From assembly GCF_000372725.1 (NCBI RefSeq), contig NW_005201213.1, positions 62,001 through 126,000 on the forward strand: a DNA stretch of 64,000 bases, written 5' to 3'. Source of the stretch: Emiliania huxleyi CCMP1516 (taxonomy: Eukaryota). The notes beneath the pieces were generated by a model. The model was not told the origin of the DNA. It worked only from the letters and a program-made list of their open reading frames with translations, and did no database searches. The position numbers and the translations under genes are program-made. Position 1 is the stretch's first letter. Every line of letters starts with the position of its first letter. Below, in pieces: positions 12,101 through 14,043 of this stretch.

Positions 12101-14043
12101 GTAACAGCAGCAGCAGCAGGGTGGCGGAGGGCGGCGAGGGGGCAGGCGAGGCGGGAGGCGCACGGCTCACCTCCGCCTGCCGCCGCGCGATGGGGCTCGC
12201 GAGCGACTCCCCGGCNNNNNNNNNNNNNNNNNNNNNNNNNNNNNNNNNNNNNNNNNNNNNNNNNNNNNNNNNNNNNNNNNNNNNNNNNNNNNNNNNNNNN
12301 NNNNNNNNNNNNNNNGCGCCGCCCCCCTACGCCGCGTCCGCCGCGCCCGGCTCCCACGCGCCTTGCGAGAGGCTCGCTGCGACGGCGCGGTCGGCCGCGC
12401 CCGCCGCGAGGTGCAGCTCGAGCGCCTCTGCGAGTCTCGCGGCGAGGACCGCCCCGCTCGGCTGGCACGCTGCCGCGGCCGGGCCGGCAGTCTCGGAGAG
12501 CGAGTAGCTCCGCCCGCGCGCCCGCGCGCCGCCCGCAACCTACGGCGTGAGTCCGCCGACAGGAGGGCGTGAAGACGTGGTCCTGTGCGGCGTACTCAGA
12601 GCACCGCGTGAGCACGAGGGGGATGCGAGCACAGTGAACACTGCGGAACACTGCGGAACACTGCGGAAGACGGCTGGGCCCGCGTCCTCTCGAGTGCTAG
12701 ATATGGGGAGATACGGGGAGATATGGGGAGATATGGGGAGATATGGGGAGATATGGGGAGATACGGTGGAAGACGGCTGGGCCCGCGTCCTCTCGAGTGC
12801 TGGTGCGGGAGACATGAACATGTACTCCGCCTCTAGGCGCCTCGGCCCCTCCGTGCTGCCGGATGTGGGGAGATATGGGGGGAGATATGGGGGGAGATAT
12901 GGGGGGAGATATGGGGAGATATGGGGAGATATGGGGAGATATGACCTCGACGACTCCGTTGCGGCGCGCCGTCTTGAGAACGCCGCTCAGCGCCCCGAGC
13001 TGCACACCGCCCCGCCCCCTGCCGCCGCCCTTGCCGCCGCCCTTGCCGCCGCCCCTGCCGCCGCCCCTGCCGCCGCCCTTGCCGCCGCCGCGTGTCTCGA
13101 GCGCCACTGTCGGGCAGAGGGGCTGCGCTCGCCTAATCTCGGCTAATCTCGGCTAATCTCGGCTAATCTCGGCTAATCTCGGCTAATCTCGCGCCACTGT
13201 CGGGCAGAGGGGCCGCGCTCGCCGTGCAAGCTCGGCGGTCGAGAGCGGCGCCTCGCCATCGGCAGCAGCGCGGCGCAGAGCGATCAGCACCGCCGCGGGC
13301 GCGCCAACCTCGCCGTGCGAGTCGAGCAGCTTGGGCACCCAAGATCGCTTGGCACGCACCACCCCCGCAGCGCGACCCGCAGCGGAACCCGCGGCGCCGG
13401 CGGCAACCTCCGCGGCACCCTCCGCGGCACCCTCGCTCGTCCCTCCGGCGTCGGCGGCCGCTGGGGCTGCACCGGTGGCGGCCGGCGGCTGCTCCGCTCC
13501 CCCGCGGCCGGCTGTCTGCCGTTGGCCCCGCGCCGGCGGTGCCTCTGCGCTCGCCGCCTCGTAGCTCTCTGCGCTGCCCGGCGCGTGCGCATACTCCTTC
13601 GCGAGCTGCCTCTTCGACTTCGCGACGGCAAAGCTGAGCGCCTGCGCCTCGGTGGCGCACTGCTCCCAGCTGTCGAAGCCCTGCCGGTTGCCCGTGCCGC
13701 CACGCTTGCCCCAGCTCCGCCACGCCACCACGCCGCACACTGCGACCGCCCACCACTTTCCCTCCTCGTCGTGCTGCAGCGCCGCGACCGGCCTGAGCGG
13801 CACCTCGCGCCGCAGCTGCTCAAAGCTCATCCACTGTCCAAGCAGCGAGGACAGCTTCTCACCCACAAACTTGACCTTCAGCGCCTCCTCACGGCTCGTC
13901 ACCTCGGACGGGTGCGCAGAGAGCGAGGCGGCCGCCCGACGGAAGGTCTGAGCCTGCTGCGAGGAGTGGTCCGCGTCGGCGGCGGCCGAGTGCCACTGCC
14001 GTAGCTTGGCGACGAGCGCCTTGTTCGAAATGCTGGCTGGCAT
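9163..14043 (-). CDS. MUS81: Crossover junction endonuclease MUS81, multi-exon and interrupted by two N gaps
   Basis: N-terminal HhH (TFRRAAASL...VKFVGEKL), winged helix (RAQPLC...YSLSE), ERCC4 nuclease (VVVDSHE...LPVGDF...VVERK...DGRHYHSQKARL...YLVEG) and C-terminal HhH2. Inferred introns 13133-13222, 12540-12945 and 9775-9928, plus one ending at 10133. Confidence 0.85.
9795..9922. repeat. (ATATCTCCCC)n minisatellite arrays inside a MUS81 intron
   Basis: Two arrays separated by a copy of exon sequence. Confidence 0.95.
10140..10472 (+). repeat. Degenerate telomere-like array (TTAGGG/TCAGGG/TCAGGA), intronic
   Basis: Directly visible. It runs into N gap 10473-11240, and MUS81 exons lie on both sides. 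Confidence 0.9.
12636..12943. repeat. (GAACACTGCG)n and two (GGGGAGATAT)n arrays within MUS81 intron 12540-12945
   Basis: Directly visible 10-bp period repeats. Confidence 0.9.
13133..13190. repeat. (GGCTAATCTC)n minisatellite in a MUS81 intron
   Basis: Five full copies plus a partial copy. Confidence 0.95.

What the first reader, a model, noticed from the sequence alone, without database searches (positions are those of the whole stretch)
13101..13223. Minisatellite insertion with 33-bp exon duplication that forms an exact GC-AG intron in MUS81
Seen: 13101-13133 and 13191-13223 are direct copies (1 mismatch) around (GGCTAATCTC)n. On the gene strand the duplicated exon supplies a donor (ACG|GCGAGC) and the repeat end supplies the acceptor (GATTAG|). 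Removing 13133-13222 (90 nt) deletes an in-frame stop and yields RAQPLC, which fits the MUS81 winged-helix motif. Inference: a recent intron gain by a staggered break plus reiterative, telomerase-like repeat synthesis, with no transposon termini.
Basis: partly seen in the sequence, partly recalled or inferred. Interest (0 to 1): 0.9.

Follow-up and report, generated by a model that had tools for sequence, protein, structure and literature searches.

The report
Repeat-array insertion became a spliced intron
A 90-base stretch made of a ten-base repeat plus a 33-base copy of the neighbouring coding sequence interrupts a DNA-repair gene (MUS81-like) of a GC-rich marine alga and is missing from its RNA, and the same repeat lies between locus-specific duplications at many unrelated places, so it likely marks a recurring insertion process that would create new introns.

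Summary
Positions 13101-13133 and 13191-13223 are 33-nt direct copies with 1 mismatch, and they flank a 10-bp array. The gene, on the minus strand, is MUS81-like. RNA contigs of two runs skip exactly 90 nt here. DNA contigs of four runs and one metagenome contig keep the array. Only one register of the skip, 13133-13222, gives GC..AG. Two orthologous proteins read straight through the junction.

The insertion is not a one-off. The same gene holds a second intron of this build: 154 nt, 23-26-nt duplication, GC-AG, skipped in two metatranscriptomes. A third such insertion lies inside an older intron. In marine metagenome contigs the same 10-mer array occurs at about 37 distinct loci. At 18 of them a locus-specific duplication of 12-41 nt abuts the array (19/36 loci against 24/600 control positions). 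Both junctions show microhomology to the repeat unit, and the loci share no element body. Other arrays, including a telomere-like one, show the same build.

Best reading: a recent intron gain, caused by array insertion at a staggered break. A telomerase-like or RNA-templated mechanism fits but is unproven. I found no description of this in ten literature searches.

The parts
13223..14043 (-). Exon 1 of the MUS81-like gene. ATG at 14043-14041. It ends two bases into an Arg codon.
   Evidence: ORF 13183-14244. HHH_8 domain, E 2.9e-10. Aligns with orthologs P0002 and P0003 from their N-termini. ATG position.
13133..13222 (-). The 90-nt GC-AG intron (phase 2). It consists of 32 of the 33 nt of the upstream duplicate, the array, and the one base (13133) counted with the downstream duplicate, and nothing else.
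   Evidence: RNA contigs of X11 and X12 join 13124 to 13215, with 9 ambiguous bases. Only this register gives GC..AG. It carries an in-frame TAG.
13191..13223 (-). Upstream (gene-sense) copy of the 33-nt duplication. Its second and third bases are the GC of the donor (ACG|GCGAGC). It carries the derived G (CGG, Arg) at 13214.
   Evidence: Both orthologs have Gln at this position.
13134..13190 (-). Tandem array (GAGATTAGCC) x5.7. Its last unit supplies the acceptor ...GATTAG.
13101..13133 (-). Downstream copy of the duplication. It is retained as the start of exon 2 and codes ...AQPLCPTVA...
12946..13132 (-). Exon 2, including a Gly/Lys/Arg-rich coding repeat at 13012-13089.
   Evidence: ORF. 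Aligns with P0002 and P0003. Frame check.
12540..12945 (-). Intron 2 (406 nt, GT-AG, inferred). It starts directly with an (ATATCTCCCC)n array and holds a further insertion flanked by a duplication.
   Evidence: The ends GTCATA...CCGTAG and the frame continuity to exon 3 fit the ortholog alignment. No RNA joint was listed for it.
12665..12801 (-). Insertion of the same build inside intron 2. Two identical 34-nt copies (12665-12698, 12768-12801) lie around an (AGATATGGGG)n array.
9775..9928 (-). Second intron of the same build (154 nt, GC-AG, phase 0). It has three 23-nt copies (9772-9794, 9854-9876, 9926-9948; the outer two match over 26 nt) separated by two (GGGGAGATAT)n arrays. Both splice sites (AAAAG|GCGCGG) lie in the duplicated exon sequence.
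   Evidence: Contigs of X13 and X14 join 9768 to 9923. Only one of 27 registers gives GY..AG. TRF period 82, 97%. Copy coordinates.
9929..10132 (-). Exon coding ...LPVGDF...ERK...RDGRHYHSQK (ERCC4 nuclease motif). The upstream acceptor is inferred.
   Evidence: Aligns with the end of P0002. Weak, collinear PDB match to MUS81.
9163..9774 (-). Reading frame that is open downstream of the 154-nt intron. Its first 137 residues match the nuclease and HhH part of MUS81, starting A-RLRRCGL.... The true end of the coding sequence was not determined.
   Evidence: Best PDB hits are human MUS81 (2zix), E 1.6e-5, from chain residue 111. ERCC4 scores 22.2 bits.

Best explanation
This is a 90-base GC-AG intron of a MUS81-like gene that consists only of one copy of the adjoining 33-base exon segment plus a ten-base tandem array, and it was likely created when a repeat array was copied into a staggered break by microhomology-primed synthesis from a repeat template, most likely RNA.

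Shown:
- The duplication and the array are in the DNA of several independent sources.
- RNA contigs lack exactly these 90 nt.
- The only canonical-type splice register uses GC at the start of the upstream duplicate and AG at the end of the array.
- The same array family sits between locus-specific duplications of 12-41 nt at many unrelated loci.
- Both junctions show microhomology to the repeat unit.
- The 3' end of the array (GAGATTAGCC orientation) is more regular than the 5' end.

Inferred:
1. Two nicks 12-41 nt apart were made in the target.
2. The 3' end at one nick, which ends like the complement of the unit's GCC, pairs with a repeat template and is extended. This is target-primed, in the manner of a LINE tail or of telomerase.
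3. The other 3' end, which ends like ...GAG/GCG, pairs with the new strand and primes the second strand.
4. Fill-in duplicates the segment between the nicks.
5. In an exon such an insertion survives only where the duplicate and the array happen to offer GY...AG sites one insertion-length apart, so that the spliceosome removes exactly the inserted length.

My odds: a real, spliced, insertion-born intron, about 0.85. The template being RNA (retroposition-like or telomerase-like) rather than DNA, about 0.4.
For: - Anatomy.
- Splicing of the 90 nt: the joint 13124->13215 (skips 90) is seen in X11 (depth 33.9, 76 nt on the shorter side) and X12 (35.9, 85 nt). It carries the T of the downstream copy, so it cannot arise from 31-mers shared by the two copies.
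- DNA keeps the insertion: contigs of 4 of 4 runs run from the array through the duplicate into the exon (13163-14045 and similar; X6 also 13060-13157). Neither skip is among the 15 DNA joints listed; 69 more were not shown. X9 DNA shares 13336G, 13342C, 13364G and 13396A with one RNA haplotype of X11/X12.
- Orthologs: P0002 (56% identity) and P0003 (47%) read ...LAQPLCPTV... without interruption and have Gln where the exonic copy has CAG.
- Second intron: 154 nt, skipped in X13 and X14, which come from two studies. One GC-AG register of 27. P0002 reads ...HSQKARLRGCGL across it.
- Generality: 46 metagenome stretches hold the array dimer. They represent about 37 distinct loci with unrelated flanks. 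18 distinct loci have duplications of 12-41 nt that are not array-like. An abutting repeat scoring >=12 occurs in 19/36 loci against 24/600 control positions, and scoring >=17 in 10/36 against 18/600.
- Microhomology: mean 1.8 nt (left) and 2.1 nt (right) against 0.38 and 0.45 in controls. It is >=4 nt on the right in 6/18 loci against about 1.4% of controls.
- Polarity: the last unit is perfect in 11/18 loci, the first unit in 5/18.
- Other array families with the same build: L010 (39-nt duplication), L028 (34), L024 (35, with an 11-mer array and an exact CG|GTACGT...GGTAG| register), L021 (23), and a (CCCTAA)n array with an 8-nt duplication in L030/L042.
Against: - No empty (pre-insertion) allele was seen for any locus, so insertion is inferred from the duplications alone.
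- The RNA evidence is from assembled contigs, not raw reads. The 90-nt skip comes from one study, and its organism code (B) differs from that of the DNA runs (A and metagenomes). An allele lacking the insertion in that strain is therefore not excluded.
- About half of the distinct loci show no duplication of 12 nt or more.
- The polarity difference (11 against 5 of 18) is modest.
- Microhomology at both junctions fits DNA-templated repair equally well.
- No reverse transcriptase, template RNA or element body was found.
- An exact GY-AG excision register exists for only 15 of 26 rows, counting either strand and counting alleles separately, and no control was run. So there is no sign that the insertions are built to be introns.
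- Absence of the intron from relatives' genomic DNA was not tested. P0002 and P0003 may derive from cDNA.
Confidence: 0.55

Rival explanations
1. Same intron and same insertion origin, but the array was copied from DNA. A broken or stalled 3' end would switch by microhomology to one of the thousands of arrays elsewhere in the genome, or to extrachromosomal array DNA. It would copy a few units and return behind its point of departure (MMEJ, polymerase-theta-type templated insertion, or fork-stalling template switching). That return would duplicate 12-41 nt.
For: Both junctions show microhomology. Filler or degenerate units occur at the junctions. There is no element body. Array 31-mers stand at depths of 17,000-77,000 against about 7-70 for single-copy exons in DNA runs, so donor arrays are abundant.
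Against: Microhomologies of 1-8 nt would not by themselves direct switches to the same array family at about 18 loci. The more regular 3' end suggests priming on a defined template end. A telomere-like array with a duplication points to a telomerase-type activity acting at internal breaks.
Confidence: 0.3
2. The 90 nt are not spliced. The RNA contigs would come from an allele or strain that lacks the insertion, and the inserted allele would be a null or decaying copy.
For: The RNA runs (organism B) and the DNA runs (organism A, metagenomes) are coded as different sources. X11 and X12 show two haplotypes nearby, and the depth of the joined contig (34-36) is close to that of one haplotype. Array length is polymorphic.
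Against: All four DNA runs and the metagenome contig hold the insertion, and no joined DNA contig was listed. A DNA run that shares one RNA haplotype holds it too. The retained copy is the one with the ancestral Gln, as splicing at the GC donor predicts. A second insertion in the same gene, 154 nt and frame-shifting, is also skipped in RNA of two further studies.
Confidence: 0.07
3. A non-autonomous DNA transposon ('introner') moved by a transposase.
For: There are many copies in unrelated loci with flanking duplications, and two are spliced as introns.
Against: The duplication length varies from 8 to 41 nt rather than being fixed. There are no terminal inverted repeats and no conserved termini or body. 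The junctions are fuzzy and carry microhomology.
Confidence: 0.05
4. An old intron in which a minisatellite later expanded and copied the exon boundary into the intron ('mirage'-type junction repeat).
For: Junction-copying minisatellites are known in other genomes (earlier finding e1-7276239).
Against: The intron contains nothing besides one duplicate and the array. The array unit is unrelated to the exon and is shared with unrelated loci. Orthologous proteins are colinear across the site.
Confidence: 0.03

Closest known systems
Introner elements of Micromonas, Aureococcus and others (Huff, Zilberman and Roy 2016, recalled; Gozashti et al. 2022, PMC9860276, passages seen)
   Same: A multi-copy insertion creates introns. 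One splice site is carried by the insert, the other is supplied by the target-site duplication, and removal is exact.
   Different: Introners have a conserved body. Their duplications are short (3-9 bp in the passage seen), and many have inverted termini. Here the insert is only a 10-11-nt tandem array, the duplications are 8-41 nt and variable, the junctions show microhomology, and no termini exist. The main text of Gozashti 2022 mentions neither Emiliania nor haptophytes.
Intron gains flanked by short direct repeats, ascribed to double-strand-break repair (Daphnia, Li et al. 2009; reviews by Farlow et al. 2011 and Ragg 2011; all recalled, not read here)
   Same: Filler DNA lies between direct repeats of the exon, there are no transposon features, and the events are recent or polymorphic.
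   Different: In those cases the filler is unique sequence of unknown source and the repeats are short. Here the filler is a recurrent array family and the repeats are up to 41 nt.
Intron gain by tandem duplication of an exon segment containing AGGT (Rogers 1989; Hellsten et al. 2011; Yenerall and Zhou 2012, as cited in earlier finding e1-9891605; recalled)
   Same: In the 154-nt intron both splice sites (AG|GC) lie in duplicated exon sequence.
   Different: The duplicates are separated by a foreign array. In the 90-nt intron the acceptor comes from the array, not from the duplicate.
Insertion of telomeric repeats at internal breaks by telomerase (short interstitial telomeric sequences of mammals, Nergadze et al. 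2004 and 2007; recalled)
   Same: A short-unit array is added at a break, with microhomology to the repeat. A (CCCTAA)n array with an 8-nt duplication occurs on the same contig as one of the 10-mer arrays.
   Different: The 10- and 11-nt units are not telomeric and come in several families. No template RNA is known for them.
Target-primed reverse transcription of non-LTR retrotransposons with repeat tails, including severe 5' truncation (recalled)
   Same: Duplications of variable length, microhomology between the tail and the start of the downstream duplicate, an irregular 5' junction and a regular 3' end.
   Different: No element body or reverse transcriptase gene is linked to the arrays. 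The duplications are longer than is usual for such elements.

Membership tests
Spliceosomal GC-AG (U2-type) intron | Absent from RNA while present in DNA | tested here: met
   The 90-nt skip appears in RNA contigs of X11 and X12. The array is present in DNA contigs of 4/4 runs and in L040. The sources are not one clonal strain.
Spliceosomal GC-AG (U2-type) intron | GC (or GT) at the 5' end and AG at the 3' end in a register that fits the RNA joint | tested here: met
   One of 10 registers fits (13133-13222): ACG|GCGAGC...GATTAG|GCG.
Spliceosomal GC-AG (U2-type) intron | Branch point and lariat | not testable with these tools
   Only contigs were available. No raw reads or lariat reads.
Introner (transposon-derived intron family) | Many similar copies in unrelated genes | tested here: met
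   46 stretches, about 37 distinct loci, with unrelated flanks. Whether the other loci are genes was not established.
Introner (transposon-derived intron family) | Conserved element body or termini (inverted repeats) and a duplication of fixed length | tested here: not met
   There is no similarity outside the array except between alleles. No inverted repeat lies at the ends. Duplications range from 8 to 41 nt.
Introner (transposon-derived intron family) | Copies are spliced at many loci | tested here: inconclusive
   RNA support exists for two insertions, both in this gene.
Intron gain by tandem duplication of an AGGY-containing exon segment | Both splice sites lie in the two copies of the duplicated exon segment, with no foreign DNA between them | tested here: not met
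   A foreign array lies between the copies. The acceptor of the 90-nt intron is in the array. The 154-nt intron meets the splice-site half only.
MUS81 structure-specific endonuclease | N-terminal helix-hairpin-helix, C-terminal ERCC4 nuclease with the ERK...GR...QK.RL motif, and closest solved relatives being MUS81 | tested here: met
   HHH_8 scores E 2.9e-10. ERCC4 scores 22.2 bits on the window's C-terminal piece (below the cut-off of 24) and 31.7 bits in ortholog P0002. The four hits listed at E up to 0.01 are all MUS81 chains (human 2zix, E 1.6e-5).
MUS81 structure-specific endonuclease | The winged-helix domain spans the 90-nt intron site | tested here: inconclusive
   No winged-helix model matched the exon pieces. 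In P0002 only HTH_27 matched, at E 0.24 and below its cut-off, just downstream of the site.
Non-LTR retroposition / telomerase-type addition | Reverse transcriptase and an RNA template | not testable with these tools
   No whole genome is held. Only indirect signs exist: variable duplications, microhomology and polarity.

The most novel reading that the evidence does not exclude
Short-unit tandem arrays (10-11-nt units, and telomere-like repeats) form a so far undescribed kind of mobile DNA in coccolithophore-type algae. They have no body and no termini. They are written into staggered nicks by a target-primed, reiterative reverse transcriptase, and they are a main source of the heavy intron turnover and of the repeat-filled, mostly GC-AG introns of these genomes.
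Probability: 0.2. Interest if true: 0.9.

Novelty: new variant of a known kind. Interest (0 to 1): 0.75.

Why it matters
How new spliceosomal introns arise is a long-standing question. Clear cases with the birth scar still visible are rare outside the introner families.

This gene carries two such scars with RNA support, and the same scar recurs at many loci. That makes the process directly testable: look for empty sites in other strains, catch new insertions in long-read resequencing, and search for a template RNA.

If the organism is Emiliania (Gephyrocapsa) huxleyi or a close relative, which I infer and did not show, two published observations gain a candidate mechanism. No intron-position conservation was detected for that lineage (Csuros et al. 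2011, passages seen). About 60% of its introns are GC-AG (Feldmesser et al. 2014, passages seen). The finding also shows that arrays which stop translation in all frames can be tolerated in an essential repair gene when they happen to be spliceable.

Tried and rejected
- Whole genome: none is held. A genome-wide census was therefore replaced by one metagenome scan and by the window itself.
- Literature: ten searches (one search failed on a short term) found no description of duplication-flanked tandem arrays as introns in haptophytes. The Emiliania genome paper (Read et al. 2013) is not held. I could not see its text or supplement, and it may describe repeat-rich introns; I recall this only vaguely. 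Replitrons (PMC10288648, passages seen) are unrelated.
- Earlier findings of this scan: none for this genome.
- Shared element body: an all-against-all BLAST of the 46 loci gave only allelic or same-locus pairs and one 89-nt match at 80%.
- Empty allele: the 90-nt indel between L012 and L038 is ordinary sequence, not an array.
- Built to be introns? An exact GY-AG register exists for 15 of 26 rows on either strand. No control was run, and rough expectation suggests no enrichment, so I make no claim.
- Coding strand from third-position GC of spanning reading frames: this failed on the known MUS81 locus and was dropped.
- First control for flanking repeats: the windows were too wide (57/400 control positions positive). 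It was replaced by the abutting test.
- Winged-helix claim: no domain model matched.
- One search used the wrong frame and was redone.
- RNA contigs of X11 and X12 stop at the borders of the 154-nt intron, as the DNA contigs do. I draw nothing from that.
- Other joints in tables 5 and 5c involve array 31-mers of other loci. I did not interpret them.
- Structure prediction, fold search, complex prediction and the RNA-family tools were not used, because they do not bear on the question.
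Full report
**Observation.** The window is GC-rich (about 65%) and has three runs of N. At the given place, the repeat finder reports 13101-13133 and 13191-13223 as 33-nt direct copies, 97% identical and 90 nt apart. Between them TRF finds a 10-bp array, 13128-13191, 6.4 copies, 98% matches. On the minus strand the order is: exon ...GCACG, duplicate, (GAGATTAGCC) x5.7 ending ...GATTAG, duplicate, exon.

**The gene.** The minus strand from about 14043 to about 9163 codes a MUS81-like protein.
- The first exon carries an HHH_8 domain (E 2.9e-10).
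- The C-terminal piece has an ERCC4 match (22.2 bits, just under the cut-off). Its best solved relatives are human MUS81 (2zix, E 1.6e-5), starting at chain residue 111, RLKRCGL.
- A database search returned two orthologs, P0002 (674 aa, 56% identity, E 1e-80) and P0003 (638 aa, 47%). P0002 carries HHH_8 and ERCC4 above their cut-offs.
- In the alignment exon 1 ends ...ELARRA and exon 2 starts QPLCPTVALE.... The orthologs read ...LAQPLCPTVALET and ...LAQPLCPTVHLET without a break.
- If the 90 nt are retained, the frame stops at TAG, codon 286 from the ATG at 14043.
- The claim that this spot is the winged-helix domain could not be confirmed with a domain model.

**Is it spliced?** One run search gave coded runs from marine sources.
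- RNA contigs of X11 and X12 (one study) join 13124 to 13215, a skip of 90 nt with 9 ambiguous bases and 76 and 85 nt on the shorter side.
- The joined contigs carry the T of the downstream copy followed by exon 1 sequence. Such a 31-mer cannot exist in unspliced molecules, so the joint is not a collapse of the two copies in the assembly graph.
- Of the 10 possible registers only 13133-13222 has GC...AG.
- In DNA contigs of four runs from four studies the array runs on into the duplicate and exon (13163-14045, 13163-14068, 13163-14117, 13166-13263; also 13060-13157). The 90-nt joint is not among the 15 joints listed; 69 more were not shown.
- An independent metagenome contig (L040) has the whole structure with the same mismatch but one unit fewer, so the period is 80 nt. 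That excludes mis-assembly and shows length polymorphism.
- The copy kept in the mRNA has CAG (Gln), as in both orthologs. The intronic copy has CGG.
- Caveats: these are contigs, not reads. The RNA and DNA sources have different organism codes. X11 and X12 are heterozygous nearby.
- I put splicing at about 0.85.

**More of the same in this gene.** A scan of all 64 kb for 'duplicate - periodic array - duplicate' found three places, all in this gene.
- The second is 9772-9948: three 23-nt copies (the outer two match over 26 nt) separated by two (GGGGAGATAT)n arrays. TRF period 82, 97%.
- Contigs of two metatranscriptomes from two further studies (X13, X14) join 9768 to 9923, a skip of 154 nt. 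Only one of 27 registers is GY...AG: AAAAG|GCGCGG...CCAAAAG|GCGCGG, that is 9775-9928.
- This second intron cuts the conserved ...RDGRHYHSQK|ARLRRCGL motif. The motif is continuous in P0002 and collinear with human MUS81.
- The third is a 34-nt perfect duplication around an (AGATATGGGG)n array at 12665-12801. It lies inside the inferred 406-nt GT-AG intron 2, which itself begins with such an array.

**Generality.** One scan of metagenome contigs for two units of GAGATTAGCC gave 46 stretches.
- BLAST of all against all shows only allelic or same-locus pairs. About 37 distinct loci remain, with no shared sequence outside the arrays, so there is no element body.
- 28 stretches have a flanking direct repeat scoring 12 or more. 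Dropping 3 array-like ones, 6 duplicate alleles and 1 doubtful one (L039) leaves 18 distinct loci, the MUS81 locus among them, with duplications of 12-41 nt.
- In a stricter test both copies must abut the array. There, 19 of 36 usable loci score 12 or more, against 24 of 600 random positions of the window. For a score of 17 or more the figures are 10/36 against 18/600.
- About half of the loci show no such repeat. A few with lower GC may belong to other organisms.
- L031 and L037 are one locus with arrays of different length.
- The flanks of these contigs hold further cases with other units: L010 (39-nt duplication, GGGGAGATAT type); L028 (34 nt); L021 (23 nt, the array in the other orientation); L024 (35 nt around an 11-mer array, with an exact CG|GTACGT...GGTAG|GTACGT register); and L030/L042, a (CCCTAA)n telomere-like array between two copies of an 8-nt segment.

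**Junction anatomy.**
- In the 18 loci the duplicated segment tends to begin like the end of the unit (G, GC, GCC, up to 8 nt) and to end like its start (G, GAG, GCCGAG).
- Mean microhomology is 1.8 nt on the left and 2.1 nt on the right, against 0.38 and 0.45 for random flanks. It is 4 nt or more on the right in 6 of 18 loci against about 1.4% of controls.
- The last unit of the insert is perfect in 11 of 18 loci, seven of which end ...TTA. The first unit is perfect in 5 of 18, and the left side often carries degenerate units or a few odd bases.
- No inverted repeats mark the ends.

**Mechanism.** The features are variable long duplications, no body or termini, microhomology at both junctions, a regular 3' end, several unit families, and a telomere-like case. 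Together they fit synthesis primed from the two 3' ends of a staggered break on a repeat template.
- I favour an RNA template, as in target-primed reverse transcription of a repeat tail or as in telomerase acting at internal breaks, at about 0.4.
- DNA-templated repair (template switching to one of the very many arrays, or capture of array DNA) comes next, at about 0.3.
- Nothing here identifies the enzyme or the template.
- Splicing of the MUS81 insertions looks like a lucky fit. In the 90-nt case the duplicate happens to start G|GCGAG, a good GC-type donor, right after the array's ...TTAG. In the 154-nt case the duplicate contains AG|GC.
- Only 15 of 26 rows have any exact GY-AG register on either strand, and no control was run. 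Most insertions probably lie in introns or non-coding DNA, or were lost if they hit exons.

**What is known.**
- GC-AG is the majority type in Emiliania huxleyi, with 56-65% GC donors. Reads ran through the whole intron in 478 of 535 introns inspected there (Feldmesser et al. 2014, passages).
- No intron-position conservation was detected for that lineage (Csuros et al. 2011, passages).
- Variation in intron number among haptophytes is noted as an open question (Hulatt et al. 2021, passages).
- That the window comes from this species or a close relative is my inference from GC content, marine sources and intron type. No call names the organism.
- Introners are the closest known system, but they have bodies and short duplications (Gozashti et al. 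2022, passages; no mention of Emiliania or haptophytes in the main text).
- Break-repair intron gains in Daphnia, the AGGT tandem-duplication model, and telomerase-made interstitial telomeric repeats are recalled, not read here.
- Ten searches found no description of this build. The Emiliania genome paper and its supplement could not be seen.

**Verdict.** The reading as a recent, insertion-born GC-AG intron is well supported, and the telomerase-like part remains a hypothesis. The wider result is that the scar recurs at many loci and with several repeat families. That makes this more than a curiosity: a new variant of insertion-driven intron gain. Interest 0.75.

Noticed in passing
window 10138-10470 (abuts the N run 10473-11240): An array of more than 330 bp of GGTTAG/GGTCAG hexamers (telomere-like TTAGGG variants) lies in another intron of the same gene, directly before the acceptor of the LPVGDF exon. 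The far side is lost in an assembly gap, so a flanking duplication cannot be checked.
   Followed up: partly
L030 about 850-915 (same in L042): A (CCCTAA)n telomere-like array lies between two copies of the 8-nt segment GGTTCCTC, on the same contig as a GAGATTAGCC array with a 19-nt duplication.
   Followed up: partly
L024 708-820: A 35-nt perfect duplication surrounds a pyrimidine-rich 11-mer array (CTTTCCTGGAC)n. The duplicate starts GGTACGT and the array ends ...GGTAG, which gives an exact 78-nt GT-AG register. This is the same architecture as the MUS81 intron with an unrelated unit. No RNA data were laid.
   Followed up: partly
window 9700-13300 against the rest: All array insertions of this kind in the 64-kb window lie within about 3.5 kb of one gene, and none lie in the other roughly 59 kb. 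This may be chance, a hot spot, or transcription-linked.
   Followed up: no
window 12636-12668: A 3.3-copy perfect 10-bp array (GAACACTGCG) lies directly beside the 34-nt duplicate in intron 2. Its unit is unrelated to the GAGAT-core arrays and it has no flanking duplication.
   Followed up: no
window 13012-13089: A 12/36-bp coding repeat gives a Gly-Lys/Arg tract (GGGKGGGRGGG...) in exon 2. The orthologs P0002 and P0003 have a similar Gly/Arg-rich tract at the same place, so it belongs to the protein.
   Followed up: partly
window 4341-5249, 16709-17564, 33006-33466, 42135-42668: Four stretches with a 156-bp period, on both strands. They code 52-residue repeats of RCC1-like appearance (...GHGD...LLPKKVEA...). 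This is a multi-copy gene family in the window.
   Followed up: no
window 53854-56590: Several arrays with a 99-bp period (33-residue repeats, ankyrin-like by period only), separated by a repeated 15-bp motif.
   Followed up: no
window 45067-45529: An 11-bp array (GTGGCGCGTGT, 11 copies) is followed by a 164-bp unit repeated twice at 98% identity.
   Followed up: no
bins 9720-9903 and 12664-12847: 31-mers of the ATATCTCCCC-type arrays stand at summed depths of 17,000-77,000 in DNA runs, where single-copy exons stand at about 7-70. They are also abundant in RNA libraries. These arrays must therefore be present at very many places in the genome.
   Followed up: partly
P0002 C-terminus: The ortholog's reading frame runs through all intron positions of the window's gene and then leaves the MUS81 sequence right after ...RLRGCGL. 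This would fit a genomic, intron-poor ortholog with one intron there, or an intron-retaining transcript. Its source DNA could not be fetched.
   Followed up: no
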